A stretch of DNA of 59,600 nucleotides, counting the filler, from Stramenopiles sp. TOSAG23-2 (lineage: Eukaryota): NCBI GenBank assembly GCA_900128395.1. It is 3 parts of 3 records of this genome, joined end to end, with 100 filler letters (N's around TTAATTAATTAA, not from the genome) between each part and the next. Parts side by side here need not be neighbours in the genome. Positions count along the whole stretch, not along the records: positions 1 to 19,855 come from LT649572.1; 2 more parts are not named here. One strand, written 5' to 3'. The notes under the pieces are model-generated. The model had not been told where the DNA came from and ran no database searches. It was given only the letters and a program-made list of their open reading frames with translations. Positions within the stretch are counted from its first letter, which is position 1, and every line of letters starts with the position of its first letter. A program made the position numbers and the translations under genes. Of this stretch, positions 1-18,699 are shown one piece after another.

Positions 1-2934
1 AAGTGGTATCCTGTTGCAATGTTCCTTATAACTAAATTAGTGACAGATACAACTCCAGTTGAATTTGTTACTGAATTATTATTACCATTTACAACAGAAG
101 GTTTGCGTGAAAGTTCTAACCCATTAGAAGCTATACGATTAGTAGAACCGGAGAAATATGCTTATCAATCAAAATTTGTAAATCGTTTTACATATTTTTT
201 TGAACGCTGCGGTTGTCAACGATTTGCAGAGAAAATGGGCAAGGAAATCTTCGTTTCATTGGAATCTACCAAAGCAGATGTGTATAATTTTAATCTAAAA
301 GAAGTTATAGAAGCAGCTAGTTTTCACGGTAACATTGGTGAGAAGAAAGAAACATTGGATAAAATGGCGGCAGGGGAGCAAGCTTTGGTATTCCAAGAGA
401 AGGAAAACGTCCGTAAGGAACTGCAAACGCTTGGAGCTCAATACTTGAAGAAATTTGGTGTAAAATTTCTTGTATCTGCAAAAGGAAAAAGTGGCAAAGA
501 TTTATTATCAATTATGCAACAACGTATTAATAATTCATTTGAAACAGAATTACAAAATGCTAGAATAGCACTATTTGATATTACACGCAAGCGTATGACA
601 AGTGAGCCGTTGGATACAGTCTCAACAGACATTGAAAAATTACGACAAAAATACAATGTCCAAGGTGCATCTGTAGCTTTGTCTCGCAGTGGTGGTGATA
701 ACATACAGACATTATCTTTTGGTAAAGCAAATGAGAGGGACAAAGTTGACGCTAAAACTATGTTTGAAATTGCTTCTTTAAGTAAAACATTTGCATCTGC
801 ATTTGCAATTGAATATTTTGCTAATCGTGGAATACCATTAACAACAAGTGCGAATAAATTATTACGCGATTGTGGATCCTCCTTTCGATTGAGCCACCCA
901 AACAATGTTGAATGGGGCGAACAAGTTAATTTACAACATTTGATGAGTCATAGCGCATTAAACATGCATTATGTTAATGGAGTTCCATTGAATGCAGAGG
1001 AGAATATGCTACCAATTAAAGATTTTTTAAATGGAAATGAAAAATATAGCTATCCAGCTATTGAGGTCTTATCAAAACCAGGGACAGTATTTCATTATAG
1101 TGGTGGTGGCTTCTTAGTTCTGCAACATTTGATAGAATCCTTTGAGAAAAATGATTCTATACAAAATATTATGGAACCATTTCTACGAAAGCTTGGAATC
1201 GCAAATGGAACTTTAACTTTTGAGGGAAAACCAGAAAATGAAAATCAAATTGCACGTGGTTACTTAGATAGTGGTGAAATGTATGGAAATGGTGGCCGTA
1301 AAATGTTTCCTGCCTATCCAGCTGGTGCCTGTGGTACGCCAGAGAGCGTTTTAAAATTATTGCAGCATTTAACTACTGCATATAATGATCCAAATGGCTC
1401 AGGACCAATCTCACATGATACTGCCATCACAATGCTGCATGGGACAGATAAGGGATGTAAGCATTTTATGGGATTGCAAATGGGAGTTGGTGTGTTTGTA
1501 GGCGAGGCACAGCGTAATCGTTTTGCTATTCACCAAGGTGCAAATGATGGTTATCGAGGCGTTTTCCTTCATTGTTTTGCTGGACCAGATAAAGGGACTG
1601 GGTTGGTTATGTTTGCTAATGGCGATAATCATGCAATGTTTTTCATTTCAGAATCCTTACAAATTATTCTGAAAACTTTGAATCTGGAAGGTGTAGACAG
1701 TTCGAAATTCAATGGTGTAAATTTTTCAACTGAAAATATCAAGCAAGAAGAAATAGTCAATTTTGGATACAAAGCGATGGTTTTTCGTGCATTTGAGGAA
1801 GATTTGCCGGAAATAACGGTGCCTCCGTTGTTTACATCGGAATCCTTGGCATTGCATGATGACGCTGCAGTTGTGCCACTTCATGAATTAACAGCATATA
1901 ATGGTGTGGTCGGTGCAAAATTACTTTCCACTACAGATCAAGGATTTGCGCAAGCGGCTAATTTAGTACTGCCAGCAGTTCCGCAATTTGATCCAACATT
2001 ATTTTGTCGCCATGGTAAAGTAATGGATAGTTGGGAGACTGTTCGACATAATGAAAATGAATTTCATGAAGCAATTTTTGAATTAAAAAAAGAAATTACT
2101 GTTCAATATGTGTTAATTTCAACGAAATGGCATTATGGAAATCAAGTGAAACATGTGCAAATATATGTACGCGGCAACGGCGATGGAGATTCATGGGAGG
2201 AATTAATACCAAAAATGAATTTAAATGGACATTCGGAGGTCCGTATAAAGACAGAGAAATCTTTAAAATGTAAACAATTCAAAGTGCTTGGATATCCAGA
2301 TGGTGGATTAACACGAGTGGGTTTGTATGAAGATGCTACGTTACCTGCAAGTGACAAAGCTACATTTGATTCCAAATGTACTAAATGTGAAGAAGCTATT
2401 CCAAAGACTGTTAAACCTATGTCGATTGATTTTAAATTCAACAAGGCTGATGTATTGAGTAATATTTCGAAATTGAATGATGGGGAAACGTATAATATGG
2501 CATCAAGTGCATATGGAGCATCGATTATTTCATGTACGAATGAACATTATGGTTCATCATCACAAACATTATCGCCTTACATGCCATTATCAATGTTTGA
2601 TGGGTTTGAATCCAGTCGCTCCCACGATAGAAGCCATAAAGAAGAAATATGTATACAATTATCTGAATCAAGTCAAATTGATGCTATTGAATTTGACTTT
2701 ACATATTTTGTACATAATAATCCAGTTGCTCTGGAAGTGTATGGCAAATTGCAAAATGAAGGTTCCTTTTCATGGGTTAATTTGGTGAACAAAACTAGCG
2801 TAAAGGAATATGCAGGCAATACACGAAGATTTTCACTTGCCGATAGCGATAAATTTGAAACAGATCAAATCAAAGTAATGGTATATCCAGATGGTGGATT
2901 TAATCGTATTCGTGTTTTTGGGAAAAAACAGTAA
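1..2934 (+). CDS. 5'-truncated multidomain purine-catabolism fusion: probable malate synthase C-terminal tail + OHCU decarboxylase + beta-lactamase-family serine hydrolase + allantoicase (two repeats)
   Basis: Frame is open from base 1 (KWYPVA precedes the listed Met). OHCU decarboxylase-like segment ~181-600 (FHGNIG, GEQ, YLKKFGVKFLVSAKG, ELQNARIALFDITRKRM). Serine hydrolase ~616-1680 (FEIASLSKT with SxxK at 775, LMSHSA, YSGGG at 1096, HQGANDGY at 1531). Allantoicase repeats ~1890-2930 (MDSWET at 2023, YPDGGLTRVGLY, MFDGFES, YPDGGFNRIRVFG). Confidence 0.9.
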   Translation, partial: KWYPVAMFLITKLVTDTTPVEFVTELLLPFTTEGLRESSNPLEAIRLVEPEKYAYQSKFVNRFTYFFERCGCQRFAEKMGKEIFVSLESTKADVYNFNLKEVIEAASFHGNIGEKKETLDKMAAGEQALVFQEKENVRKELQTLGAQYLKKFGVKFLVSAKGKSGKDLLSIMQQRINNSFETELQNARIALFDITRKRMTSEPLDTVSTDIEKLRQKYNVQGASVALSRSGGDNIQTLSFGKANERDKVDAKTMFEIASLSKTFASAFAIEYFANRGIPLTTSANKLLRDCGSSFRLSHPNNVEWGEQVNLQHLMSHSALNMHYVNGVPLNAEENMLPIKDFLNGNEKYSYPAIEVLSKPGTVFHYSGGGFLVLQHLIESFEKNDSIQNIMEPFLRKLGIANGTLTFEGKPENENQIARGYLDSGEMYGNGGRKMFPAYPAGACGTPESVLKLLQHLTTAYNDPNGSGPISHDTAITMLHGTDKGCKHFMGLQMGVGVFVGEAQRNRFAIHQGANDGYRGVFLHCFAGPDKGTGLVMFANGDNHAMFFISESLQIILKTLNLEGVDSSKFNGVNFSTENIKQEEIVNFGYKAMVFRAFEEDLPEITVPPLFTSESLALHDDAAVVPLHELTAYNGVVGAKLLSTTDQGFAQAANLVLPAVPQFDPTLFCRHGKVMDSWETVRHNENEFHEAIFELKKEITVQYVLISTKWHYGNQVKHVQIYVRGNGDGDSWEELIPKMNLNGHSEVRIKTEKSLKCKQFKVLGYPDGGLTRVGLYEDATLPASDKATFDSKCTKCEEAIPKTVKPMSIDFKFNKADVLSNISKLNDGETYNMASSAYGASIISCTNEHYGSSSQTLSPYMPLSMFDGFESSRSHDRSHKEEICIQLSESSQIDAIEFDFTYFVHNNPVALEVYGKLQNEGSFSWVNLVNKTSVKEYAGNTRRFSLADSDKFETDQIKVMVYPDGGFNRIRVFGKKQ

Positions 2935-3467
2935 CAGTACCGTGAGATGTGAGAGGTATCCCCAACATGACTGTGGTAGTCCTTTATATCTATGCTTAAG
3001 ATATTAATTAGTAATTTAAGGATAGCTACATACATGGTCCTATCCGTCTTTTCCGTGATGGCCACTTCGTACTTCTTTTAATATACTAAATATGCTATAA
3101 TTTATCTATCAAATATATATCCCTTCTATAGCAGGTGAATACGATGGAAACCACACAGGTTTTTGATTGGAGGTTGGAGGAAGCCGGAAAGTTTACCTTA
3201 ACCTGTGGTGTAAAACATATTTAAGTTGGAATATATGATGTTTAATCTGATGAATGATGAGCATTGCATGAATACCACCACAGGAATATATCTTTTTTTA
3301 TTTTTTGAAATAAATAAAAACTAAGAAAGTGATTGATGAAAGTATTTAGTAGATAGAAGAATCAAAAGTCCAGTTTATTATTATTTATTAAATTAATATT
3401 ATTATTATTCATTCAATCTAATATAGCAGTAGGGAAAACATATATATATATTATTATTATACAAAAG

Positions 3468-5162
3468 ATGGATGCATTAGCGATTGATTTAGTGCAATAC
3501 AATAGTCCTGCATCATTAAAAATGCGACATAGGCGAAAAACGAAAGGTGGAGGATTGAATCATTCACATAATAAAAGTAGTCGTTTAGGGATAATGCATA
3601 ATCATTTAAATAATCCATTAGAGTTAGAACCTCTTGATAGTACTAGTAATAATATTAATAATAGAAATGTTAATGATGGTATATCACCAACATTTATTGA
3701 TTATGCAGAGGAAGAATTAGAAAATATCAATAATGGTTCTTCTTCCTCTATGAATAGTTCTAATTTATCATCTGGTGGTGGTATTTTAAAAACACCACAA
3801 AAAATGATGAACAAAAACAATAATAATGGTATAAAGCAACCTGTACGTTTTAATTTTAAGCAAGACAGCTTATACATAAACAATAGACCAAGTTTACAAG
3901 GATCGAATCCAAAGTTAGAAGCATTATCCGTCGGTTCAAATGGATTAATGAAAAGCGCATCTACTATCAATCTTTTACAATTTCAACTAGATAAACAAAT
4001 GACGAATAGCGTTTTAAAAAACAATAATGAAAGATTAAAACATATGAATAGTCCACCATCACCGATGCGAAAAGGAAAGCGAAATACAAATGCAACATTA
4101 GCTCTTGGCAAAATTGTTGTTCCAATGATGGATGGGATTGAAAGTATTGTTGATGATGGTTTTCAAAAATGTTTTGAACGTCGTAGTGAACCATCATGGA
4201 ATTATGTTTGGTATTTAGCGATTCCATGGTTTTTTGGTGTGTTGTTTCGTTGGTTCATTTTATTTCCAATACGTTTAGTCTATTGGATTTTAGGTCATAT
4301 TTTATTTATCATTATAAATATCGTTGGTGGTGTATATTTCACATATACAAGAAATCATGAAAAACAGAAAAAGTTCGAGTTGTATTTAGTGAAATGGCTT
4401 GCATATGTTTATGTATCTTCATGGTCGGGGGTTGTACGATTTCATGGGGAAAAGCCAAGGTTGCAAAAGCAAGTGTTTGTTGCAAATCATTCAACTATGA
4501 TTGATGTTGCTATTTTATTACAAAATAATATTTATAGTTTAGTTGGGCAAGCACATAAATCATATTATGTCAATTTAGTACAAAATGTTGCTATGAGGAG
4601 TATGGATTGCATATGGTTTAATCGTGATGAAACGAGAGATAGAACTAAAGTCAGCAAGCGTCTGAGAGAACATGCACGAAATGTTAATGGTGATTTACAA
4701 CCATTGTTAATTTTTCCAGAAGGTACGTGTGTTAATAATGAATATGTTGTTTTATTTAAAAAAACAGTATTTGATTTGGATGATGATATTGCCATTTGTC
4801 CAATTGCTATTAAATACAATAAATTGTTTTGCGATGCTTATTGGATATCAAGACAAGAATCGTTTTTATTCTATCTTTTTCGTTTAATGCGTTCGTATTG
4901 TTTAGTATGTGATGTTTGGTACATGAATCCTATGTATAGAAAAAAAGGAGAAACCGCTATTGAATTTTCTTGGCGAGTTCAACAAGCAATTGCAGATAAA
5001 GCTGGTTTAGTAAATACAAATTATGATGGATATATGAAATATTGGAAACCAAGTTTACGATATAAACGAGCAAGGCAATTAGCATTTGCAAATCAAATTT
5101 TACCGTCGGATGTACTTGACAATAAAAGAACAATATCAAAATCCAGTAATGGAAGACACTAA
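3468..5162 (+). CDS. GPAT9: ER-type glycerol-3-phosphate acyltransferase (GPAT9 / GPAT3-4 family) with an Asn-rich disordered N-terminal extension
   Basis: IESIVDDGFQKCF..WN segment, TM helices, HxxxxD motif (VANHSTMID), IWFNR, LLIFPEGTCVNN, PIAIKY, VCDVWY. Confidence 0.92.
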   Translation: MDALAIDLVQYNSPASLKMRHRRKTKGGGLNHSHNKSSRLGIMHNHLNNPLELEPLDSTSNNINNRNVNDGISPTFIDYAEEELENINNGSSSSMNSSNLSSGGGILKTPQKMMNKNNNNGIKQPVRFNFKQDSLYINNRPSLQGSNPKLEALSVGSNGLMKSASTINLLQFQLDKQMTNSVLKNNNERLKHMNSPPSPMRKGKRNTNATLALGKIVVPMMDGIESIVDDGFQKCFERRSEPSWNYVWYLAIPWFFGVLFRWFILFPIRLVYWILGHILFIIINIVGGVYFTYTRNHEKQKKFELYLVKWLAYVYVSSWSGVVRFHGEKPRLQKQVFVANHSTMIDVAILLQNNIYSLVGQAHKSYYVNLVQNVAMRSMDCIWFNRDETRDRTKVSKRLREHARNVNGDLQPLLIFPEGTCVNNEYVVLFKKTVFDLDDDIAICPIAIKYNKLFCDAYWISRQESFLFYLFRLMRSYCLVCDVWYMNPMYRKKGETAIEFSWRVQQAIADKAGLVNTNYDGYMKYWKPSLRYKRARQLAFANQILPSDVLDNKRTISKSSNGRH

Positions 5163-5593
5163 AGAATGGGGTGGTGTGTATGTACGTAATATTGATTTTT
5201 AATCGATTTCGTCGTTAGTAGTGTCATCTTTAGCTCTGCGTGTGTGTGTATAATGTGTTTTGATATATATACCAGGTTTTTATATCATACGTATTTTTTT
5301 CGAGGCGAGAGCATTTGCTTTTTTGTCAACATTTTTGCACATATTTGGTAATATTTAAATCAATTTTTTCGAAACTAAAATCATATGAAATACGAGTAAC
5401 ATTTTTTATAAATGCATAATTTAATCGCTGTAAGAAGAAGCGTAAAAAATTACGAAGCGTGTAAAAAAATACGATTTCGTATCATATGATAGTTCCTTTC
5501 AAATTACACGCGCGCACCCCTCTCACTCTTTCTTTTTCATTTGAAACACACCATAATACGTATACGTACGAGGCGTATATATTATCAACTTTT

Positions 5594-6571
5594 TTACAAT
5601 CTTGCTTTATCTTTATTAATAGATTCAGCGGCCACGTTCCATAATTTTTTTAATTCATATGTAGTGAAATCAATATTTAATTTTAAACCAAAATAAATTT
5701 CAATCATACGTATCCATTCTTCCATTGTTTTTGCTTCTTGAACTACAATCCAATTTAATTGGTTGTCTCCATCTGTATCATTCTTGGTTTCAATTAATTG
5801 ACGTAATTTTGTACCAACTACATGTAATAACACACCACCCTGTGATGTTCGAAAAATAGATGGCTTATAAAAAGGACTTGTTTCTTTTGCATCATGATAC
5901 CAAATATGTTTTTCTAAAAATGCTGTATGATATGCCTCCATCGTATTATCAATTGGGTCAATTTCAAAATCCAGACCTTCGAAAACTGCATTTGGATGAT
6001 TATACCACCTCCACACAACGTTATCAATTTTATTCAATTTATACTTCCTACCGTCTACTAGTCGCCATTCTATACTATCATTGTTTGGTAATTCAAATGG
6101 TAAGTTTGGTCCATCCCCTAAACCAACATCAACAACAAATTTTTTATTATCTATATGTACAACGCAGACAACATGATTAGTTGATTGTTTTACACTTGCA
6201 GATTCTGCTTCTCGCCAAGTTAAGTCCAATCTATCCTTTATAGCACTGCAATATCCTCTATGCAATGTAACTTTATAACCAAGACTAGAGAGCAATGACG
6301 AAAATGCACCAACTAATAGAAAACAATATCCACCACGTGAGCGGTCCAATAATCGATTGACTAAATCTATTTTTAATAAGGATTGTGGATTTTTCCTTGA
6401 GGCTACATCTAATGCTTCATATGGATATGTATTGAGATGGGATTGAAAAATTTTATTTAATGTTTGATAAGATGGTATCAAAACTTCATCTGGTTTGATT
6501 TTTAATTGTTTTAAATATTTCTGTATGGTAACAACTGGTAACTTTACATTTAATAATTGATTTTTAGACAT
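5594..6571 (-). CDS. Arylamine N-acetyltransferase family protein with C-terminal -ARL
   Basis: PYEAL, RGGYCF (catalytic Cys), NHVVCVV (His) and VDVGLGD (Asp) give the NAT catalytic triad in order. Confidence 0.88.
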   Translation of the reverse strand: MSKNQLLNVKLPVVTIQKYLKQLKIKPDEVLIPSYQTLNKIFQSHLNTYPYEALDVASRKNPQSLLKIDLVNRLLDRSRGGYCFLLVGAFSSLLSSLGYKVTLHRGYCSAIKDRLDLTWREAESASVKQSTNHVVCVVHIDNKKFVVDVGLGDGPNLPFELPNNDSIEWRLVDGRKYKLNKIDNVVWRWYNHPNAVFEGLDFEIDPIDNTMEAYHTAFLEKHIWYHDAKETSPFYKPSIFRTSQGGVLLHVVGTKLRQLIETKNDTDGDNQLNWIVVQEAKTMEEWIRMIEIYFGLKLNIDFTTYELKKLWNVAAESINKDKARL

Positions 6572-6769
6572 GGTGAGAATTAGAATAGTAGTGGATTCAT
6601 GTTATGAAAATTATTATTTTTTTCGTATTTTGTATGTGTATTATGTATATTCTTCTGAAGGGATATAATAAATTAAAATGTAATGGTAATGGTGAGATAA
6701 AAGTTACAAAGTATACATTAAAAAAGAAGAAGAATAAAAAATATTTACTATATACGACACGAACCAATT

Positions 6770-7531
6770 TTATCCAGTTGATACTTCCATGCCACTCATT
6801 AAAAAACTAATTTTATTTAATGTATCTATCGCTTCATTTATAGCTTGTTGGCATTCAATAAATTCCACATTGTTTTTATTATTTGTACATTTAACAACTA
6901 ATGTCCCTTGTTCATTTGACATACGTTGTACTAATATTCGTATTTTCGGAGTTGGATCCAACCAAATTTGATTCATGGTATCACCAGCAGCTGCCATCAT
7001 ATCATTCGCAACACTTTTCAATGCTTGTAAATTTGCTTTGAAACCTATTTGATCTATATCTTTTGTTGTATATGTAACTTGTGAATCGCTGGTGACCAAT
7101 ACGGCTAATTGTATGCCCCGACTATCTTGTAATTTTCCCAATGTTGGTGCTATTGCACTACGAATAGTTTCTGGTATTTTAAATTGAAAATCTTCGAAAT
7201 CTTTTAAATTAGTACCAATATTATTTTTTAAGTCTTTGGAATAAGTGGAAAAAAATGTGGACAAAATTTGTGTTGCAATCAATTTACCAAACTCAGGTCC
7301 ATCATCTGCACTGTGAAAAATTGCACATGAAATATCTAATGTTGCTACTATCGTTACTGCTACACCTTTTAATTGTATATAGGATACTGGCATACCAGCA
7401 ACATTTTTACTAAATTCTGCAATAGCAGTTAATAATGAACCAATTAATCTTGGTTGACTAACAGATGTTTCATATTCTTTCGAAAACAAGACCAGACCAG
7501 ACGAGGAGACTACCAGGATATTTTTCAGCAT
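6770..7531 (-). CDS. Longin-like N-terminal domain plus possible roadblock-like C-terminal domain, 253 aa
   Basis: N-terminus MLKNILVVSSSGLVLFSKEY...LIGSLLTAIAEFS has the longin beta-beta-alpha pattern. LGKLQDSRGIQLAVLVTSDSQV resembles a roadblock/LC7 start. Fold calls are by eye. Confidence 0.6.
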   Translation of the reverse strand: MLKNILVVSSSGLVLFSKEYETSVSQPRLIGSLLTAIAEFSKNVAGMPVSYIQLKGVAVTIVATLDISCAIFHSADDGPEFGKLIATQILSTFFSTYSKDLKNNIGTNLKDFEDFQFKIPETIRSAIAPTLGKLQDSRGIQLAVLVTSDSQVTYTTKDIDQIGFKANLQALKSVANDMMAAAGDTMNQIWLDPTPKIRILVQRMSNEQGTLVVKCTNNKNNVEFIECQQAINEAIDTLNKISFLMSGMEVSTG

Positions 7532-8466
7532 ATATGTATATTGTTAGGGATGGATGGGTGGGTGGGGGGTGATCACTTATATAAATATATTATCATGTGA
7601 TATGATATGATATGATTGTTCGGATTGATTGTCGATATGCAACATATATGTTGTATAAATAAACAGATGAAGAAGGATTAATAAAATTCTATGATGAGCA
7701 GCTGTTGTATTAGTATACTATATAATACTGGTAATACAGCTTAAAGCTCTGAGCAACCTTGTCCAGCTGTGCCATTTTCGCCAATTATAATATAAGGTAT
7801 AATTGCTTAAATTTTATTTTCCCATTGTCCTTAGTTTTAAATAATTGGCTAAATTTTAAGTTTTGCGTGGGAGGCACTAAAATTAACACACAGGACTATG
7901 GAATCCTACTCGATCCCCTCATAAAATGGGGCTATTTGTAAGAGTTTTGTCCTATATTTCTTTAGTAACAATTACAGTAGTCTTTAGTATATTTACAAAT
8001 TTTAGATTTAGTTAAAAATACAGTATATTGTATAATATATTGACAAATATAGTGGGGTAGTAGTGAAAATGACTATACACATTAAAATATAAATACATGG
8101 TGAAAACGTGATTTTTAAGAACGAGTAGGTGTCAAAATTTAGAACCCCTCCCAAAAAATCCAATGCCATTCCATGGAAAACAAAATTTTAAATAGCATGA
8201 CCATAGCATGAATCTTTTTACATAGCATAGGAATAGCATAGAAACACTACTACAAACACTAATTCATCCATTTTTCCTCTCTTGGGTCCGCCACTACGCC
8301 ACTACTCGATCCCTCCCATAATCAGGCCGTCATCATTATTACCCGTTAATCCCATCTTTATTGCTTCTTTCGTGACACAGACAAACGTTTCTAATCATCA
8401 CATTCGTAATAAACACCACAACTGCATAACGCTTCTACTAGATTTTAAATCCATCCAGATATAGCC

Positions 8467-8799
8467 ATGTGTAAAAAATATTCCAAATATGTCCTAGAAA
8501 TGGACACTAATCCAATCTTTTTAAACTTGGAAAAAGAGAAAAAAATAAAATTTAAAGAAATAATACGGAGATATAGTCATGTATTTAGGAAAACAGTAAC
8601 ACCATTACCTAGGTCGGTGGCAGAGTTTAGGATTGATACAGGTGATGCAAGACCAAGAGTGTCACACCAATACCCACTGCAGAATAAACAAAAAGAAGCA
8701 GTAAAAATTTTTGTAAAGGAAATGTTACAGCAGGGTTTAATTAGACCTTGTTCGTCACCTTGGTCAAGTCCATTGTTGGTGGTATCAAAACCAGATGGT
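8467..8799 (+). mobile_element. Truncated Ty3/gypsy LTR-retrotransposon pol fragment (region just N-terminal to the RT core)
   Basis: FRIDTGDARPRVSHQYPL...VKEMLQQGLIRPCSSPWSSPLLVVSKPDG is the typical gypsy pre-RT block. Homology stops before the expected R.C.DYR.LN motif. Confidence 0.8.
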
Positions 8800-9621
8800 T
8801 ATATTTGGAATTGGCTATATTTGGGCAGGTATATGGCTATATTTGAAATAATCTCAAAGGCCATAATATAATAACAAAAAGTATACATATATACAAACAT
8901 AATACAAATAAGAAAAAGTAACAAAAAGTATACATATATACAAACATAACACAAATATAAAGCAAAAAAAATCAATTAAACAATTAAAATACTTTAGAAA
9001 CGCAATTGAAACAATTATGTCGAGTATAAGAACAACAACAACCCAAAATGGATCAGGTGATCATAAAGCCTTAGAGTAAGGGGAAAAATCTCATCTCCAG
9101 GCATTGGCCTCTTTTCCCTATTCTTTCATTACTCTTTTTTGCTTTGTCTTTTCTCTTCTCCCTATTTAATCTTAATATTGGAAAATTCACGTTTTGCACC
9201 TACATATATATATATATATATATATATATGTTTCCCAGCGCCCCGCTTTATAATAATTCTGGCCAAATATATGGTCTTACTCTCCTCATCCTCATACTAT
9301 GCATCTCCTGCGCTCGTATACAATGCTATTTAGTACTATATGTATTATAACATTCTAAAATAATAACCTTAAAATATTAATAATAAAAATTTAAGGAGAT
9401 TTACAGAAATAACATTCAATCTGTGTTTGTTGTTGGTTATATATATATATACTGTTTCATATAAAATATATATCAATATATCGATAATATAAGTCATCAA
9501 TCTCTTATTTACATTTTTCAACAATAATACTTCTCTGTATTCTATAAATAGATATATATTGTCCATCTTTAGCAAAGAAATTGAATTTTGTTTGAGTAAA
9601 AAAAAAAGAAATATCATCAAA

Positions 9622-10815
9622 ATGCCGTCCATTATATATTATTACACGCATTTATTATTATTATTATTATTATTGATTTTACTAGTTTTAATATCACATG
9701 TGCAATCACTTGTCGTTAATTTAACTCCAAAAACATTTAATACTGTCATACGTAAAAATCAATATGCGCTTATAACATTTTGTGAACCATCTATTGGTCG
9801 TTGTAAAGCATTTATGCCTGAATTTGCAGAGGCAGCAAAGGAGTTAGAAAAGTATAAACCAAAAATACGTTTTGCAAAAATGAATGTTGAAACATATGCT
9901 GAATTTGTTGAAGATAAGGATATATTGAATTATCCAACAATATGGTGGTTTTATAATGGTAAATTTAGCAAAGTATATACAGGTGGCAGAGTGAAAGATA
10001 GTATCGTTGAATGGCTTGTAAAACAAACAAAACAAAATTATGTAAATATAGAAACAATGGATGACTTATCGACATTTAAGTTATTGCATGACGTTGGAAT
10101 TTTTGGCTACTTTCCAGAACAACGATTATCCAATGGAACTGTTGTAAATAATATGAATTTAACCAGATTTAATACAGTTGCACGCAATTTAGAAGTACCA
10201 TTTGGCCGTTTAATAAGCCCTGATGTAATATTAGATGTATTTCATGATAATAAAAAATTATTATTAAATCAAATGGTAGAACAAATGAACGATATTGCAG
10301 ATGTGGAGGTAAATGACAAAAATGATAACAACGACGAGGACAATAATCATAAATTGAAATCAATGATATTATTATATAGACGAGATTTTAAGAAATACAA
10401 TGCAACGTATTTTATAGATCCAATTGAAACATTACAAGAATGGGTATTGAATAATTATTTACCACTTGTTGTTGAATATTCAATGGATACTTCTATTCAA
10501 TTATATAGGACGCATGTTAAATTTCGATTATTTGTTTTATGTGAAAATAATCCTAGTATTTTAGAAGCAATGAGAAAAGCAGCACCATTACATCGTGGAC
10601 AAGTGACATTTATTGCAGTAAAAAAAGATCAAGATCGTTTATTAACATATTTAAATAGTACTAGTGATGATTTTCCATCAGCACATATGACAACAATGCG
10701 TCATTATATTAATCATTATTGGAAATTTGATCGTGAAGATTTTGAAAATCCTGCTGCATATTCAGATTTTATTCAAAGAGCAATGGCAGGAGAATTGGAA
10801 CCTCATTTGTTTTAA
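9622..10815 (+). CDS. Protein disulfide isomerase-like protein (a-b-b' thioredoxin folds) with a non-canonical active site
   Basis: ATG at 9622 (the listed 9559 start is TTG), hydrophobic signal peptide, VVNLTPKTF, FCEPSIGRCKAFMPEFAEAA, YPTIWWF, YTGGR, YLPLVVEY. Confidence 0.85.
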   Translation: MPSIIYYYTHLLLLLLLLILLVLISHVQSLVVNLTPKTFNTVIRKNQYALITFCEPSIGRCKAFMPEFAEAAKELEKYKPKIRFAKMNVETYAEFVEDKDILNYPTIWWFYNGKFSKVYTGGRVKDSIVEWLVKQTKQNYVNIETMDDLSTFKLLHDVGIFGYFPEQRLSNGTVVNNMNLTRFNTVARNLEVPFGRLISPDVILDVFHDNKKLLLNQMVEQMNDIADVEVNDKNDNNDEDNNHKLKSMILLYRRDFKKYNATYFIDPIETLQEWVLNNYLPLVVEYSMDTSIQLYRTHVKFRLFVLCENNPSILEAMRKAAPLHRGQVTFIAVKKDQDRLLTYLNSTSDDFPSAHMTTMRHYINHYWKFDREDFENPAAYSDFIQRAMAGELEPHLF

Positions 10816-14499: not shown

Positions 14500-17400
14500 T
14501 CAACCTTTCGTCTCTTCATCGCTACTGGTTTCGTCTTCGCTACTATCCTCCAAAGTTGCTCTAGCATGTTCACTCCCAAGACGTTTATTTTTTTGTAACT
14601 CCTTCAATTTGCGCATTAATTGTATAGATACTAAACTTAACAGTGTTGCTGCTAGTATCGAATATTCCGCCATTTCATATTCCACTGTAATCATATTGGC
14701 ATTACCAGGTGGAAAACTAAAACCGCACGTGCGGGGATCTTCCACGCATAAACCTTCACAATCATCACATTCTTGAATTAACCAAGTATATCCCTTTACA
14801 GTACGCTTTGTCATTTGCTTTTCATCTTGTTGACCAACAACTTTGCATTTTTGTTCGTTGTTCACCGGATTTCCATCAATATCTTTAAATATACGGCGGC
14901 AACGGCCAAAATGCCATTTGTAATCGCCATCTGGTACCTCATCTTTTACGTAATATTTTAAATGCCTACCTTGATGGTGCAATGGAGTATGTCGAAATGC
15001 CCATGGGTTCCCATCTAAATCAGCACCACCTTTTTCCACCCAATATTTACACCATTTTTCACCATCGGGATGGTTAAAACCGAGTTCATTACCGTTGCCA
15101 TCAGTCAAATTCCAAAACCACATCAATCTACCACCAATTTCGCCGCCAAATTGACGAGTTTTTAATTCCCGATATTCTTCTTCAAAAAATGGATAATTAC
15201 GTGCTAACTGATTCATCCTAACAGCAGCAGGTTTTCGAACTTTCAACCCGGCTGGTAAATACCATTCACACGTTCCACTTGTATTTTCATATACCACGCC
15301 CCACAAACATAATGCGAAGGATAGAGACATCATTGGATCCGCGCGTCCATATGAAACGCCAATAATTACAAACGTAAATACCCACAAAACCAATGTGCTC
15401 CATCCTTGTTCAACCCAATCTCCTATGTATAGATATACATAATCAGAAGCACTTACAATGTAATGACTAGTTGATAAAATTGCCATAAATGATACTAATC
15501 CAATATAAAATGACAATGGTAAATGTAAGAGATAAAATTCTAATGGTGACGTGTATTCATTCTTTCTTGAAAGTTTTCTTAAAATACGACGCCATTTAAC
15601 TTCACGTTTTACTTCATCCCAGTGAACATGTTTTTCTAAAAACTCTTCATGCTCACGATCTATATCATCTTGACTAACCTCTGCTATGTATTGGGGAAAT
15701 GCACCGCTTTTTTTATATAATTTCACTAATGAGTAAAGCAATGCATAACATGATAGTAAGGAACACCAATATACTCGAAATAAAAAGAATAATAAAAAGC
15801 ATATGTTGAAGAAACAAGAGTACATGAAGTAATTTCCAATCCCAGTAATCCAGCGTTGATATGCCAGTACAGTAAGTTGCCACTTGTGTAAACGAGGAAT
15901 TTTGATGAATGTATTACACATGGGCAAACGTATGTATTCCCATTCTGTTTGTGGACCACGTATCATCAAAACTTGCTGTAAATCTTTATCTTTTTTTTGA
16001 TGATAGGCCCTGGAGCGTAACAAAGATTCATGCGGAAGCAATTGTATAAGCACCCAGCATCCTATCCATGCATAAATAATGAAAAACATTTTAAAAGTTG
16101 CATGGTGGGGCATAATTGTAAGAGATGCTTTGTACAAGGCAAGGTTCCCTTCTGGTGCATCGAGATCGCGTGCAACTAATCCGCAAGTTCGATGATTCAA
16201 TGGCGGGGTCCCTTTCATTCCAAGCATACGATATCCCCATGGCGCGGCTAATAAATTGATAACGATCATTGCAAAATACAACGTTGCATTGCCAAATTGT
16301 TTCACTACCGTAAATGTGACAACCAAACGTTGCCTCCATAACGGTTTGTAAAACATTCTAATAACTAAAGCGCTTAAAGATGTAATAGAAAGACATGCTA
16401 AAATTGCAGCGAATAAAAACGTGAAAACCATCAGCCAAAAGCTTCCACCCAGTTTCACCTCCGCTGTCAAAACTCCTAAGGATCTATATTGATTCCATTG
16501 TGCAGCGGAAATAGACAAAAAGCACAACGACATTGTTAATCCGAATACTAAATCAGAGCGATAAAATATAATGTACACAGTCAACCAGCTTAAACCAAGA
16601 ACCATGACTATGGCCCATTCAAATTGCCATCCAAAACCATTCCATTCATATTTTTTCAATGCCGAAGCGATAGTCACGACTAAGTTAAAAGACATCCAAG
16701 ACATCATGAACGACAGAGGGGACCATACGAAAATGCGTTCTTTATACGTCAATCGACCAGTTGAACGTACACCAACTTCTAAACGCTTGTATGTAAATGC
16801 AAGCATCGCAACAGCTAATCCAAGTATCATGCTTGCATAAATTAGATATTCATTTTGCCATAACAATAAAAATGTACCAAGTAACATATTATGCATTGCT
16901 ATCGATGTTTCAACACGTGAAATAATACCTTGTTGCGATTTAAGACCGGAAGGTAAACTTAACGTCATGACTAATACGCCGTTTAGAACTATGTAAGTTC
17001 TCCACATACTCATAAAGCTTGTATGTGGGCTTATGTATGTCGTATATTTTCTAAATACATCCCCACATGTCTGCCCACCCAAATAGCTACCCCTTGCAAA
17101 GGTAACTGAAAGTAACATTGCGATGTATGTCAATATGTTTAACATTTGATAAACTTGTCCCATCCAACGTCGAACCACATGTCGTTTTACATCAACATGT
17201 CGCTCAATCCAAATTGGTTGTCGTATAAAATCTGGTAATACAGCAGTAAGGTGAGTGCCGTTGGTCATATTGCTTAAACGTATTAAATAAGCAGTAGTAG
17301 GACGGAGCTCATCCGACTCAGATTGACCTAAAAAAATCGCACATGTATGTATTGCACATTTCAAACCATCCGTTGGAAAATGGTCTAAATATTTTCGACG

Positions 17401-18699
17401 CTGTACATTTACATCAAACAAATGATTTTCTAAAATATCTGGTGGTTCATTACATACAAAGTAAATATGATCTAATTTCTCGTAATTATCTATATCAAAA
17501 ATGTAATCAAATAGGCCATCTTCTAAAGCTGAATGGCCACGAGTCTTTAAATTTCTTAAAAATTCGCAACATTCATCAACATTTTGATCGTTTACCCGGC
17601 GTAGCCCCCGTTTGCTCCAACTGGAAAATGTTGCACCATATACAATCACATCAAAATAACAATATTCACTTAATTGTTCCTTCAATATTCTACATAAATC
17701 CCGTATCATGAATCTAAATCGATCAATTCGTTCATTTTGTGTAGTAACGAATTGAATATCCATATTTGATATGGTTGGTATAACAAAAATCATACGTTTT
17801 CCTTGAATTTTACCAAATATAGCGGATCGTGGATATGTACACATATTAATCAATTTTTTCTCCATTACCTTATGTGCAAATGATCCTTTTTCAAAAAAAA
17901 ATGCTATCTCCAATGCAATCCATCTATTTTCTGTATCTATTAAAAAATCTAACATTTCCTCAAATATTTCAAAACGAGCAGTAACATCTTTAATTCTTTT
18001 TAATAAAAATCCAGTTTCTTTACATGTAAAACCAGTAACATTGTATCGTAATAAATGTAACATTTGAATAAACTTATCTTTCTTGTATATCCATTTCAAC
18101 AACAATTTTGTAGCTTGCTTATGATTCATTATTTCACAATGTGTAGAAACACTTTGTGATACTACAGTTACCTGGTCTGTACTAAACCTAGAATTTTTCA
18201 ACATGGAATCAATTTCACGTACATGTTCCGTCTTTTTAGCTCTTAAATTTCTAACAATCATTGGAGGTATTTTCATGCTATTTTTATCCGGTTCTTTATC
18301 AAATGACATGTCTAATATATATTCTTTTACATATGACCTAGTAGCAACACTGAATATGTTTAATAAAGTGTATTTTTGCTTTACACCTGTTAAACTTAGT
18401 AAAAAAATTTCTAATATTTCAATGCGTTCACTTTCAGTCTTGCATAATTTAGCAAATGTATTGAATTGCTCTATTGAAAAAATTTTAGTTGTACATAGAC
18501 ATCGAAATATTGAAAACTTTTCTCTCAACGTTTCCGCTTTTAATATAATATTCCATATTGATTTCATCTCATCATGCGTCACCAAAGTTGGATGCTTATC
18601 CTTTTCGTTAGATTTAATGTCTTTCTTACGAGCTTTAACTAATACTTTGAATAAGTCATCTGAGTATTTGCCCATAAGGGCTTCCCGCGTAGTAGCCAT
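14500..18699 (-). CDS. 1399-aa protein: helical N-terminal repeats (DUF4476-like), degenerate vWA domain, duplicated multi-TM module (TspO/tryptophan-rich-sensory-like), Cys/Trp-rich loop and a final TM helix
   Basis: Long intact ORF. vWA-like GKRMIFVIPTISNM...FDVIVYG...HIYFVCNEPP. Two homologous TM blocks (ISPHTSFMSMW / IMPHHATFKMF; PLSFMMSW / PLSFYIGL; RSDLVFGL / RADPMMSL). Confidence 0.75.
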   Translation of the reverse strand: MATTREALMGKYSDDLFKVLVKARKKDIKSNEKDKHPTLVTHDEMKSIWNIILKAETLREKFSIFRCLCTTKIFSIEQFNTFAKLCKTESERIEILEIFLLSLTGVKQKYTLLNIFSVATRSYVKEYILDMSFDKEPDKNSMKIPPMIVRNLRAKKTEHVREIDSMLKNSRFSTDQVTVVSQSVSTHCEIMNHKQATKLLLKWIYKKDKFIQMLHLLRYNVTGFTCKETGFLLKRIKDVTARFEIFEEMLDFLIDTENRWIALEIAFFFEKGSFAHKVMEKKLINMCTYPRSAIFGKIQGKRMIFVIPTISNMDIQFVTTQNERIDRFRFMIRDLCRILKEQLSEYCYFDVIVYGATFSSWSKRGLRRVNDQNVDECCEFLRNLKTRGHSALEDGLFDYIFDIDNYEKLDHIYFVCNEPPDILENHLFDVNVQRRKYLDHFPTDGLKCAIHTCAIFLGQSESDELRPTTAYLIRLSNMTNGTHLTAVLPDFIRQPIWIERHVDVKRHVVRRWMGQVYQMLNILTYIAMLLSVTFARGSYLGGQTCGDVFRKYTTYISPHTSFMSMWRTYIVLNGVLVMTLSLPSGLKSQQGIISRVETSIAMHNMLLGTFLLLWQNEYLIYASMILGLAVAMLAFTYKRLEVGVRSTGRLTYKERIFVWSPLSFMMSWMSFNLVVTIASALKKYEWNGFGWQFEWAIVMVLGLSWLTVYIIFYRSDLVFGLTMSLCFLSISAAQWNQYRSLGVLTAEVKLGGSFWLMVFTFLFAAILACLSITSLSALVIRMFYKPLWRQRLVVTFTVVKQFGNATLYFAMIVINLLAAPWGYRMLGMKGTPPLNHRTCGLVARDLDAPEGNLALYKASLTIMPHHATFKMFFIIYAWIGCWVLIQLLPHESLLRSRAYHQKKDKDLQQVLMIRGPQTEWEYIRLPMCNTFIKIPRLHKWQLTVLAYQRWITGIGNYFMYSCFFNICFLLFFLFRVYWCSLLSCYALLYSLVKLYKKSGAFPQYIAEVSQDDIDREHEEFLEKHVHWDEVKREVKWRRILRKLSRKNEYTSPLEFYLLHLPLSFYIGLVSFMAILSTSHYIVSASDYVYLYIGDWVEQGWSTLVLWVFTFVIIGVSYGRADPMMSLSFALCLWGVVYENTSGTCEWYLPAGLKVRKPAAVRMNQLARNYPFFEEEYRELKTRQFGGEIGGRLMWFWNLTDGNGNELGFNHPDGEKWCKYWVEKGGADLDGNPWAFRHTPLHHQGRHLKYYVKDEVPDGDYKWHFGRCRRIFKDIDGNPVNNEQKCKVVGQQDEKQMTKRTVKGYTWLIQECDDCEGLCVEDPRTCGFSFPPGNANMITVEYEMAEYSILAATLLSLVSIQLMRKLKELQKNKRLGSEHARATLEDSSEDETSSDEETKG

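What the first reader, a model, noticed from the sequence alone, without database searches (positions are those of the whole stretch)
1..2934. Single-polypeptide urate-catabolism assembly line: (malate synthase)-OHCU decarboxylase-serine hydrolase-allantoicase
Seen: one uninterrupted frame carries an OHCU decarboxylase-like domain, an SxxK serine hydrolase and a two-repeat allantoicase. The decarboxylase keeps the His at 325 and the GEQ Glu, in positions equivalent to the catalytic His/Glu of UraD. Established: the pathway runs OHCU -> (S)-allantoin (UraD) -> allantoate (allantoinase) -> ureidoglycolate + urea (allantoicase) -> glyoxylate, which malate synthase can assimilate, as with DAL7 in the yeast DAL cluster. 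Inference: the last three domains follow pathway order, so this may be a channelling polyenzyme recovering nitrogen and carbon from purines. I know of two-domain fusions in this pathway but not this architecture in a eukaryote; novelty is unverified.
Basis: partly seen in the sequence, partly recalled or inferred. Interest (0 to 1): 0.92.

Follow-up and report, generated by a model that had tools for sequence, protein, structure and literature searches.

The report
Five-domain urate-to-glyoxylate fusion enzyme
The window holds the last 977 residues of a 1,940-residue protein of a marine flagellate that joins most of the enzymes for breaking uric acid down to urea and glyoxylate, and its penicillin-binding-type domain probably replaces the one enzyme of the pathway (allantoinase) that genomes with this protein lack.

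Summary
Window 1-2934 (+) is one open frame with an OHCU decarboxylase domain, a beta-lactamase-fold serine hydrolase and a two-repeat allantoicase. It is preceded by the tail of a malate-synthase-like (MS-like) domain.

A 99%-identical metagenome contig shows the whole gene. It is 1,940 aa: uricase, MS-like, OHCU decarboxylase, serine hydrolase, allantoicase.

The four-domain core is not unique. It occurs in 231 bacterial species genomes, mostly Bdellovibrionota, and in stramenopiles such as Hondaea. I found no paper describing it.

In bacteria it lies in an operon: urate oxidase, HIU hydrolase, then the fusion, often beside xdhABC. In a sample of 301 genomes, 61 carry allantoicase:
- 27 have only a stand-alone allantoicase. 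Of these, 26 have AllB allantoinase (one more has a partial copy), and all 27 have either DUF6986 (24) or AllA (3).
- 34 have the fused form. Of these, 33 lack AllB, and none has PuuE, DUF6986 or AllA.

Best reading: the serine hydrolase is a third, non-homologous type of allantoinase (about 0.65). The MS-like domain is more likely a ureidoglycolate lyase than a malate synthase (about 0.55-0.6). Nothing has been tested biochemically, and channelling is untested.

The parts
1..180 (+). C-terminal tail of the malate-synthase-like domain. The gene starts upstream of the window; window aa 1 corresponds to aa 964 of the 1,940-aa protein.
   Evidence: It aligns with 'KWYPVAM...' at about aa 620 of 1,550-aa homologues. 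In the 99%-identical contig L093 the same frame runs on upstream through MS_C, MS_TIM-barrel and Uricase.
196..603 (+). OHCU decarboxylase (UraD) domain. His109 is at nt 325-327, Glu126 at nt 376-378 and Arg198 lies in 'ITRKR'.
   Evidence: PF09349 matches aa 94-199 and NF010372 matches aa 66-201. His109 and Glu126 align with His67 and Glu87 of 5uou/3o7h. H109, E126, Q127 and R198 are invariant in 15 of 15 and 32 of 32 sequences.
631..1800 (+). Beta-lactamase-fold serine hydrolase domain, the candidate allantoinase. Ser259 is at nt 775-777, Lys262 at nt 784-786, Tyr366 at nt 1096-1098 and His511 at nt 1531-1533. It includes the conserved C-terminal helix 'QEEIVNFGYK'.
   Evidence: PF00144 matches aa 211-546. 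The AF2 model has pLDDT 93.7. Fold matches reach Z 32-35 to family VIII esterase, LACTB, D-amino-acid amidase and R61 DD-peptidase. The motif residues are invariant in 32 of 32 sequences and in 18 of 18 sequences that include stand-alone forms.
1822..1869 (+). Flexible linker or lineage-specific insert between the hydrolase and the allantoicase.
   Evidence: This is the only segment with pLDDT below 50 (aa 608-623) in the 977-aa model. The insert is absent from the bacterial homologues.
1912..2328 (+). Allantoicase repeat 1.
   Evidence: PF03561 matches aa 638-776. It aligns to yeast allantoicase 1sg3 residues 29-185.
2473..2925 (+). Allantoicase repeat 2.
   Evidence: NF010371 matches aa 825-975. 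It aligns to 1sg3 residues 198-342.
2932..2934 (+). Stop codon. The protein ends ...FGKKQ, with no SKL-type C-terminus.

Best explanation
The window carries the 3' half of an intron-free nuclear gene of a flagellated eukaryote, probably a marine stramenopile. The gene encodes a 1,940-aa polyenzyme for uric acid breakdown with five domains in this order: uricase, MS-like TIM barrel, OHCU decarboxylase, beta-lactamase-fold serine hydrolase, allantoicase.

Proposed chemistry (only the order of known reactions is established knowledge):
1. Urate to 5-hydroxyisourate by uricase.
2. Hydrolysis to OHCU by an HIU hydrolase encoded elsewhere, or spontaneously.
3. OHCU to (S)-allantoin by the UraD domain.
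4. Opening of the allantoin ring to allantoate by the serine hydrolase domain, with Ser259 as nucleophile and Lys262, Tyr366 and His511 as the usual helpers of this fold. This makes it a third, non-homologous kind of allantoinase.
5. Allantoate to ureidoglycolate plus urea by allantoicase.
6. Ureidoglycolate to glyoxylate plus urea by the MS-like domain acting as a lyase.

Shown here: the domain identities, the conserved catalytic residues, the operon context and the gene distributions. Inferred: the substrates of the serine hydrolase and of the MS-like domain.
For: Whole gene:
- Contig L093 is 99.1% identical in DNA over the 2,934 nt, and its 3' flank is collinear.
- It has one ORF of 1,940 aa with Pfam Uricase, MS_TIM-barrel, MS_C, OHCU_decarbox, Beta-lactamase and Allantoicase.
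- The same 1,940-aa product exists as three distinct full-length cluster members on five contigs.

Pathway context:
- In 80 bacterial loci the fusion is present in 80 of 80. It is preceded by a transthyretin-type HIU hydrolase in 58 and by a PuuD-type urate oxidase (PF06181) in 56. xdhC, xdhB and xdhA lie nearby in 26, 26 and 22. No other neighbour is shared by more than 8 loci.
- In a Planctomycete locus the neighbour is a cofactor-less uricase instead.

The missing step:
- Five fusion genomes, including a complete Peredibacter chromosome and Oligoflexus tunisiensis, have no AllB or PuuE above cut-off. Their three best AllB-like hits (G002-G004) proved to be dihydroorotase or dihydropyrimidinase.
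- In 301 sampled genomes, 61 carry allantoicase. Thirty-four have the fused form and 33 of these lack AllB.
- All 27 genomes with AllB above cut-off have a stand-alone allantoicase, usually adjacent. PuuE is above cut-off in 0 of 301. Fisher p = 1.8e-16, not corrected for phylogeny.
- The stand-alone cluster reads PuuD, AllB, allantoicase, UraD, HIUase, DUF6986. The fused cluster has the same functions, with AllB replaced by the serine hydrolase.
- Three of four further fusion-bearing MAGs labelled Planctomycetota, plus one labelled Polynucleobacter, also lack AllB and PuuE.

The hydrolase looks active and autonomous:
- SxxK, the Tyr and HxG are invariant.
- The fold includes amide-cleaving relatives such as D-amino-acid amidase, D-aminopeptidase and 6-aminohexanoate-dimer hydrolase.
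- It also occurs alone, as hydrolase-allantoicase, and as UraD-hydrolase-allantoicase.
- Stand-alone eukaryotic transcripts often end in SKL, SRL or AKM. I recognise these endings as peroxisomal signals from memory.

The MS-like domain as a lyase:
- Among the 27 stand-alone-only genomes, 24 have DUF6986 and 3 have AllA. None has both and none has neither.
- Among the 34 fused genomes, none has DUF6986 or AllA.
- Four of five fusion genomes also have a separate canonical malate synthase (259-362 bits, against 68-78 bits for the fused domain).
- Arg276 of E. coli MSA is replaced by Trp. That position is one of the two changed in the zebrafish MS-like ureidoglycolate lyase (PMC10120013, sections 9-11 read).
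Against: - There is no biochemical evidence for any domain.
- Two fusion-bearing genomes also have AllB: G275, which has the two-domain hydrolase-allantoicase form, and G309, an 11.3-Mb MAG. Displacement is therefore not absolute.
- Most genomes are MAGs, so absences are uncertain.
- The fused and stand-alone types may each be one clade, so the Fisher values overstate independence.
- Across all 301 genomes, fusion versus AllB is not significantly exclusive (p = 0.34). The signal exists only among allantoicase carriers.
- I know of no beta-lactamase-fold enzyme that opens a hydantoin ring (recalled, not searched beyond).
- The second motif is Y-S-G, not YxN.
- The eukaryote's own genome could not be searched for AllB, PuuE or HIUase.
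- For the MS-like domain, Arg166, Glu250, Asp278, Trp365 and Asp447 of MSA are all kept. The paper's UGL group has Met at 365 and is eukaryote-only.
- Yeast keeps a dedicated malate synthase (DAL7) for this pathway, so a true malate synthase remains plausible.
- DUF6986 is only weakly similar to MS: 22.8 bits, below cut-off, and not significant by BLASTP.
Confidence: 0.6

Rival explanations
1. One reading: the MS-like domain is a genuine malate synthase that condenses the glyoxylate end-product with acetyl-CoA. Ureidoglycolate would then be split by allantoicase itself or spontaneously.
For: PF01274 and PF20659 match above cut-off. The equivalents of MSA Arg166, Glu250, Asp278, Trp365 and Asp447 are conserved. 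There is precedent for MS genes in purine clusters: DAL7 in yeast and glcB of Paraglaciecola (passage in PMC10120013). AllA-type lyase is rare in the phylum anyway, at 4 of 301.
Against: Four of five fusion genomes already have a separate, much better-scoring malate synthase. The AllA / DUF6986 / MS-like slots are mutually exclusive across 61 genomes. Arg276 is lost. In the nearest eukaryotic relatives P0001 and P0002 the domain has large deletions and loses the Arg166 or Asp447 equivalents, yet the rest of the protein is conserved.
Confidence: 0.35
2. The serine hydrolase performs another hydrolytic step, for example a ureidoglycolate or ureide amidohydrolase, or a replacement for HIU hydrolase. 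Allantoin would then be opened by an unrecognised enzyme or by a promiscuous dihydropyrimidinase or dihydroorotase.
For: Function cannot be read from the fold. Some fusion genomes hold dihydropyrimidinase-like genes scoring 250-275 bits on the AllB model. The eukaryotic five-domain protein lacks both HIU hydrolase and allantoinase.
Against: HIU hydrolase is encoded right beside the fusion in 58 of 80 loci. The one-to-one comparison of the two cluster types leaves only AllB unmatched. G001 and G005 have no AllB-like hit above 138 bits. The domain always sits directly N-terminal to allantoicase, including in the two-domain forms.
Confidence: 0.15
3. The serine hydrolase domain is a non-catalytic scaffold, or serves something unrelated to purines such as cell-wall or peptide hydrolysis in predators, and is fused by accident of history.
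For: The family is commonest in predatory bacteria, and many PBP-like proteins act on peptides.
Against: The catalytic motifs are invariant in 32 of 32 and 18 of 18 sequences. The domain is kept between UraD and allantoicase in bacteria and eukaryotes at 43-58% identity. Stand-alone eukaryotic forms carry SKL-type ends.
Confidence: 0.07
4. The multi-domain frame is an assembly chimera or bacterial contamination.
For: None found. The check with sequencing reads could not be run.
Against: An independent metagenome contig has the same junctions and the same 3' flank. Five contigs carry the identical-length 1,940-aa product. The junctions are conserved in 231 bacterial genomes. The neighbours in the window are eukaryotic: protein kinase, BK channel, IFT122, WDR90/CFA20, HORMA.
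Confidence: 0.01

Closest known systems
AllB/DAL1 allantoinase (metal-dependent amidohydrolase, TIGR03178) and PuuE allantoinase (polysaccharide-deacetylase type, TIGR03212)
   Same: The predicted reaction, (S)-allantoin to allantoate, and the position in the pathway between UraD and allantoicase. AllB occupies exactly this slot in the stand-alone clusters of the same phylum.
   Different: There is no homology. The window's domain has the serine beta-lactamase/PBP fold with SxxK, Y-S-G and H-Q-G. If active on allantoin it would use a covalent acyl-enzyme rather than metal-activated water. That mechanism is inferred.
Class C beta-lactamase / R61 DD-peptidase / D-amino-acid amidase / family VIII esterase superfamily (PF00144)
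   Same: The fold (Z 32-35, rmsd 2.4-3.1 A over about 320 residues) and the catalytic Ser-Lys, Tyr and third-motif Gly.
   Different: Only 15-20% identity. It is far below every class C family cut-off (38.9 against 415 bits). There is no signal peptide context. It is fused inside a purine-catabolic protein. The third motif has His as in R61 (recalled), not Lys.
Urah-Urad 'allantoin synthase' and other two-domain fusions of the pathway (allantoicase/OHCU decarboxylase NF010371; the AllB-UraD fusion seen in G275)
   Same: Consecutive or near-consecutive ureide enzymes joined in one chain (review PMC13751858, passages).
   Different: This protein has four or five domains, spans the pathway from urate to glyoxylate, and includes a domain of a fold not known in the pathway. 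HIU hydrolase, the usual fusion partner of UraD, is the one enzyme left out.
Zebrafish malate-synthase-like ureidoglycolate lyase (DrMSL/UGL; PMC10120013)
   Same: An MS-family TIM barrel tied to allantoicase and uricase rather than to the glyoxylate cycle. Arg276 of MSA is substituted.
   Different: Trp365 is kept, whereas UGL has Met. The domain belongs to a separate clade of about 685 aa, largely bacterial, while the paper's UGL group is eukaryote-only. The paper's alignment (SI Fig. S14) could not be seen.
Yeast DAL cluster (DAL1, DAL2, DAL3, DAL7)
   Same: The same set of functions grouped for allantoin use, including an MS-family member.
   Different: It is a gene cluster of separate proteins with a classical allantoinase and a classical DAL3 lyase, not a single polypeptide.

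Membership tests
OHCU decarboxylase (PF09349 / UraD) | Profile match above the curated cut-off | tested here: met
   PF09349 scores 69.6 bits against a cut-off of 24. The NCBIfam equivalog-domain models are below cut-off (TIGR03180 75.3 against 139.4), so this is a divergent member.
OHCU decarboxylase (PF09349 / UraD) | Catalytic His and Glu (His67 and Glu87 in Klebsiella numbering; their catalytic role is recalled from the literature) | tested here: met
   His109 and Glu126 align with His67 and Glu87 of 5uou. They are invariant in 32 of 32 sequences.
Allantoicase (PF03561, EC 3.5.3.4) | Two tandem allantoicase repeats | tested here: met
   There are two stretches with E 1.5e-43, and both repeats align to yeast allantoicase 1sg3. 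TIGR02961 is below its equivalog cut-off (151 against 277.9). Fused repeats score about 50-110 bits against about 120-190 for stand-alone ones.
Serine beta-lactamase / PBP-like superfamily (PF00144) | Profile match, fold, and the SxxK, Tyr and third motifs | tested here: met
   PF00144 scores 65.6 bits against 27. Fold matches reach Z 35. S259-x-x-K262, Y366-S-G and H511-Q-G513 align to the class C motifs.
Class C beta-lactamase (AmpC-type resistance enzyme) | Score above the family cut-off; YxN and KTG motifs | tested here: not met
   NF033085 scores 38.9 bits against 415. The motifs are Y-S-G and H-Q-G. This is not a resistance beta-lactamase.
Allantoinase, AllB type (TIGR03178) or PuuE type (TIGR03212) | Homology to the amidohydrolase or polysaccharide-deacetylase families | tested here: not met
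   No such domain is found in the 977 aa or the 1,940 aa. The claim is 'works like an allantoinase', not membership.
Allantoinase (function, EC 3.5.2.5) | Hydrolysis of (S)-allantoin to allantoate | not testable with these tools
   There is only indirect support, from operon context and complementary distribution.
Malate synthase (PF01274 + PF20659) | Profile match and the MSA residues Arg166, Glu250, Asp278 and Asp447 | tested here: met
   Tested in the conspecific full-length protein: PF01274 scores 47.9 bits against 26.4, and PF20659 scores 22.6, just under its cut-off of 23.1. The residues are conserved but Arg276 is replaced by Trp. Only the last ~60 aa of this domain lie in the window.
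Malate synthase (function) | Acetyl-CoA-dependent condensation with glyoxylate; conserved acetyl-CoA site | not tested
   The acetyl-CoA site residues could not be scored, because the paper's SI alignment is closed. A separate canonical MS is present in 4 of 5 fusion genomes.
MS-like ureidoglycolate lyase (UGL group of PMC10120013) | Arg276 and Trp365 substituted; 2-aa insertion; eukaryote-only clade | tested here: inconclusive
   Arg276 is substituted (Trp) but Trp365 is kept. The insertion was not checked. The clade is largely bacterial. Functional equivalence is suggested by the exclusivity of AllA, DUF6986 and the MS-like domain.
Urate oxidase (PF01014) | Two uricase repeats with full-length alignment to solved uricases | tested here: met
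   This part is outside the window, in L093. PF01014 matches with E 1.8e-39 in 2 stretches. It aligns to 7f2v with E 1.3e-41 over residues 2-310.

The most novel reading that the evidence does not exclude
The beta-lactamase-fold domain is a third, serine-nucleophile class of allantoinase that has displaced AllB in predatory bacteria, some Planctomycetes and several stramenopiles. Together with an MS-like ureidoglycolate lyase, it lets one 1,940-aa eukaryotic polypeptide carry five of the six enzymatic steps from urate to glyoxylate plus two urea. By the same logic, DUF6986 is a further unrecognised ureidoglycolate lyase.
Probability: 0.45. Interest if true: 0.88.

Novelty: new variant of a known kind. 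Interest (0 to 1): 0.8.

Why it matters
- Purine breakdown is a textbook pathway whose gaps have repeatedly been filled by non-homologous enzymes, such as PuuE and the MS-like lyase. A serine-hydrolase allantoinase would be a new entry in that list and a new chemistry for the beta-lactamase fold.
- The family is common in bacterivorous microbes (Bdellovibrionota, heterotrophic marine stramenopiles) that eat nucleic-acid-rich prey. It therefore bears on how such predators recycle nitrogen and release urea.
- Database names for these proteins ('malate synthase, glyoxysomal', 'serine hydrolase', 'allantoicase') each describe only one domain. That can mislead metabolic reconstructions, for example by inferring a glyoxylate cycle or a beta-lactamase.
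- The five-domain chain is a natural example of extreme pathway fusion and a ready test case for whether such fusions channel intermediates.
- The predictions can be tested directly with recombinant domains.

Tried and rejected
Tools that gave no answer:
- No whole genome is held for the window, so the organism's own AllB, PuuE and HIUase could not be checked.
- The look-up of sequencing runs was unreachable six times. Read laying was therefore never run, and read and transcript support for the junctions and for expression is missing.
- Complex prediction on the hydrolase domain against the allantoicase domain gave no verdict.

Searches that found nothing useful:
- Rfam found nothing in the window.
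- The ESM Atlas gave only generic beta-lactamase clusters.
- BLASTP of DUF6986 against the MS-like domain and against P0001 was not significant.
- The uricase domain is only 29% identical to the Planctomycete neighbour uricase, so nothing can be said about its origin.
- Literature searches for the fusion, for an allantoinase of this fold and for DUF6986 found nothing relevant. The library lacks most subscription journals.

Ideas I rejected:
- Tyr324 ('HYV') as the catalytic Tyr. Profile alignment puts the class C Tyr at Tyr366.
- The hydrolase as an HIU hydrolase analogue. HIUase lies next door in 58 of 80 loci.
- An eroded MS-like domain in the window's protein, which I expected from its nearest relatives P0001 and P0002. 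L093 shows an intact one.
- AllA-type lyase as a general partner. It is found in only 4 of 301 genomes.

Tree: a FastTree of 191 rows (rows under 850 aligned residues left out) puts the window with P0001 and P0002 (support 100) inside a 10-row clade that holds all six known eukaryotic rows (support 100). The tree is unrooted, so the direction of transfer between bacteria and eukaryotes is not settled.


Full report
**What is in the window.** Bases 1-2934 (+) form one frame that is open from the first base and ends at a stop codon, giving 977 aa. Pfam finds OHCU_decarbox (aa 94-199), Beta-lactamase (aa 211-546) and two Allantoicase repeats, all above the curated cut-offs. NCBIfam agrees, but every equivalog model is below its cut-off, so all three domains are divergent members.

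His109 (nt 325-327) and Glu126 align with His67 and Glu87 of the solved Klebsiella OHCU decarboxylase. Both allantoicase repeats align with yeast allantoicase. The first ~60 aa align with the C-terminal end of a malate-synthase-like (MS-like) domain in longer homologues.

**The gene is larger than the window.** One scan of metagenome contigs found a single relative, L093, 6,344 nt long. It matches 2,908 of the 2,934 nt, differs in 5 of 977 residues, and has a collinear 3' flank.

In L093 the frame continues upstream to an ATG and gives 1,940 aa. The domains are:
- Uricase, two repeats, aligned at E 1.3e-41 to the solved uricase 7f2v.
- MS_TIM-barrel plus MS_C.
- OHCU_decarbox.
- Beta-lactamase.
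- Allantoicase.

The same 1,940-aa product is on record as three distinct full-length sequences from five contigs. No other protein of 1,067 aa or more with a similar uricase start was found, but that search depends on shared words. The rest of the window encodes ordinary eukaryotic genes and no other purine genes: protein kinase, BK-type channel, PDI-like, carboxylesterase, HORMA, SPX, WDR90/CFA20, IFT122. This is a nuclear gene of a flagellate, not contamination.

**The four-domain core is a large, unnamed family.**
- Of the 120 best hits listed (596 with E <= 0.001 among 7,998 candidates scored), 115 carry PF01274, PF09349, PF00144 and PF03561 together. They are about 1,410-1,630 aa long and 43-50% identical over the whole 977 aa.
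- Named members include Hondaea fermentalgiana GBG28752.1 ('Malate synthase, glyoxysomal'), MMETSP transcripts, and a cluster containing a MAST-4 protein. The last of these is among the window's closest relatives at 55-57% identity.
- In one-genome-per-species bacterial contigs, 231 of 276 candidate stretches encode a relative. They are mostly Bacteriovoracaceae, Bdellovibrio, Oligoflexia and allies, plus several MAGs labelled Planctomycetota, Myxococcales or Pseudomonadota.
- In a FastTree of 191 rows the window groups with P0001 and P0002 (support 100). All six known eukaryotic rows fall in one 10-row clade (support 100). The tree is unrooted.
- Seven literature searches found no description of the fusion.
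- In the passages I saw (12 of 35 places), a 2026 review of the pathway's fusions treats only Urah-Urad. It never uses the word 'lactamase'.

**Bacterial context.** I called ORFs of at least 100 aa in the 80 loci and clustered them by BLASTP.
- The fusion is present in 80 of 80 loci.
- A ~107-aa protein lies directly upstream in 58. Pfam calls it an HIUase/transthyretin-family protein.
- A ~545-aa protein precedes that in 56. It is a PuuD-type urate oxidase (Urate_ox_N).
- XdhC, XdhB and XdhA lie nearby in 26, 26 and 22 loci.
- Nothing else is shared by more than 8 loci.
- In a Planctomycete locus the neighbour is a cofactor-less uricase instead.

The fusion therefore belongs to urate catabolism. 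HIU hydrolysis has its own enzyme in these operons.

**The missing allantoinase.** A protein that makes allantoin (UraD) and consumes allantoate (allantoicase) needs an allantoinase.

Five fusion genomes have no AllB and no PuuE above cut-off. They include a complete Peredibacter chromosome, a Bdellovibrio isolate and Oligoflexus tunisiensis. The best AllB-like hits of three of them (G002-G004) are dihydroorotase (708 bits on NF006559; over the TIGR00857 cut-off in G003) or dihydropyrimidinase (583 bits on TIGR02033).

I then sampled 301 genomes of the phylum of G001. The counts are in the table.

| Feature | Genomes of 301 |
|---|---|
| Hydrolase-allantoicase part of the fusion | 34 |
| AllB above cut-off | 27 |
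| PuuE above cut-off | 0 |
| Allantoicase | 61 |

The 61 allantoicase carriers divide into 34 with the fused form and 27 with only a stand-alone allantoicase.
- Of the 34 fused genomes, 33 lack AllB.
- Of the 27 stand-alone-only genomes, 26 have AllB, mostly adjacent. The 27th (G168) has a partial AllB next to its allantoicase.
- The single overlap, G275, has a two-domain hydrolase-allantoicase protein as well as a stand-alone allantoicase and an AllB-UraD fusion elsewhere.

Fisher's test within allantoicase carriers gives p = 1.8e-16. Across all 301 genomes the exclusivity is not significant (p = 0.34). Neither figure allows for shared ancestry.

The stand-alone cluster in G009 reads PuuD, AllB, allantoicase, UraD, HIUase, DUF6986. 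Function for function, this is the fused operon with AllB in place of the serine hydrolase. Of five further fusion-bearing MAGs, three labelled Planctomycetota and one labelled Polynucleobacter lack AllB and PuuE. One 11.3-Mb MAG has AllB.

**The hydrolase domain itself.**
- AlphaFold gives a confident model: pLDDT 93.7, pTM 0.92.
- It has the class C / DD-peptidase fold. Matches include IS11 esterase (Z 35.3), LACTB, D-amino-acid amidase (Z 33.4), EstB and R61 DD-peptidase (Z 32.0). More distant matches are D-aminopeptidase and 6-aminohexanoate-dimer hydrolase. Sequence identity is 11-20%.
- Sequence search of solved structures reaches only E 2e-6.
- Profile alignment places the class C Tyr motif at invariant Y366-S-G and the KTG motif at invariant H511-Q-G513. 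Together with S259-x-x-K262 these are unchanged in 32 of 32 fused sequences and in 18 of 18 sequences that include stand-alone forms.
- An exhaustive search finds 97 cluster representatives at E <= 1e-30. Four length classes appear: the domain alone (~390-455 aa), hydrolase-allantoicase (~740-770 aa), UraD-hydrolase-allantoicase (~980-1,014 aa) and the four-domain form.
- Several stand-alone forms are complete eukaryotic transcripts ending in SKL, SRL, AKM or ARM. I recognise these endings as peroxisomal signals from memory.

The domain thus looks like an active, autonomous amide hydrolase whose constant partner is allantoicase.

**The MS-like domain.** Zebrafish 'malate synthase-like' protein is a ureidoglycolate lyase, not a malate synthase (PMC10120013, sections 9-11 read).

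Aligned to E. coli MSA, both the bacterial and the conspecific domains keep Arg166, Glu250, Asp278, Trp365 and Asp447. Arg276 is replaced by Trp and Trp277 by His. This matches one of the paper's two diagnostic changes.

Three genomic observations favour a lyase role:
- In the 27 stand-alone-only genomes, 24 have DUF6986 beside the cluster and the other 3 have AllA-type lyase. None has both and none has neither.
- In the 34 fused genomes, none has either.
- Four of five fusion genomes also have a separate canonical malate synthase scoring 259-362 bits, against 68-78 bits for the fused domain.

Against this, the residues used for acetyl-CoA chemistry are kept and yeast keeps DAL7, a dedicated malate synthase for this pathway. 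DUF6986 resembles MS only below threshold. I put the lyase reading at about 0.55-0.6.

The domain belongs to a distinct clade of about 685 aa. That clade also occurs alone in Desulfobulbales, Bradymonadia and Myxococcales-labelled records. In the window's nearest relatives P0001 and P0002 it is eroded, but in the window's own species it is intact.

**Channelling.** The 977-aa model is compact and confident (pLDDT 88.5, pTM 0.87). Only aa 608-623 are disordered. This fits a fixed architecture but shows nothing about transfer of intermediates. The complex test gave no verdict (see Tried and rejected).

**Verdict.** The feature is real and correctly read by the first stage. What is new is the functional inference. 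The beta-lactamase-fold domain is the best candidate for the pathway's missing allantoinase. The MS-like domain, and DUF6986 in the unfused clusters, are the best candidates for the ureidoglycolate step.

The limits are these:
- No biochemistry has been done.
- Many genomes are MAGs.
- The statistics are not corrected for phylogeny.
- The organism's own genome was not available.
- There was no read or transcript check.
- The paper's supplementary alignment was closed.

Noticed in passing
L086 9588-10934 (G009), and the same position in G138, G156 and G082: DUF6986 (PF22484, ~450 aa, weak sub-threshold likeness to the MS and HpcH TIM barrels) is the last gene of the stand-alone urate clusters. 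Across 27 genomes it is mutually exclusive with AllA-type ureidoglycolate lyase (24 against 3, none with both or neither). This suggests it is an unrecognised ureidoglycolate lyase. Eleven further genomes have DUF6986 without allantoicase or AllB.
   Followed up: partly
L090 (G275:C12) 621-10105; L092 7383-9236: This genome has an intermediate architecture: PuuD, a 772-aa hydrolase-allantoicase protein, two class-V aminotransferases, a single-repeat allantoicase of 166 aa and a separate 735-aa MS-like gene. Elsewhere it has an AllB-OHCU decarboxylase fusion of 617 aa.
   Followed up: partly
P0001 and P0002 (nearest eukaryotic relatives, 1,411 and 1,423 aa): Their MS-like domain has large deletions and loses the equivalents of MSA Asp447 (P0001) or Arg166 (P0002). 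The other three domains stay conserved. The domain may be decaying or changing role in that lineage.
   Followed up: partly
P0167, P0172, P0173, P0177, P0188, P0192, P0193 (alignment A3): Stand-alone versions of the hydrolase in eukaryotic transcriptomes end in SKL, SRL, AKM or ARM. The window's fusion ends in KKQ and has no such ending.
   Followed up: no
P0331, P0336, P0347, P0416 and others: A stand-alone MS-like family of about 685 aa, 50-60% identical to the fused domain, occurs in Desulfobulbales, Bradymonadia and Myxococcales-labelled records. It is annotated as 'aldolase/citrate lyase family' or 'hypothetical'. Its gene context was not examined.
   Followed up: no
window 42845-45896 (+): IFT122 is read in three overlapping or adjacent ORFs (second beta-propeller, TPR, zinc ribbon). 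This suggests short introns or frame changes in that gene, in contrast with the intron-free 2.9-kb urate gene.
   Followed up: no
window 14500-18699 (-), 48865-51633 (+), 53439-56252 (+): Three long ORFs (1,399, 922 and 937 aa) have no Pfam match at E <= 1e-5.
   Followed up: no
window 3468-5162 (+): An acyltransferase (PF01553) has a long Asn/Ser-rich low-complexity N-terminal half.
   Followed up: no
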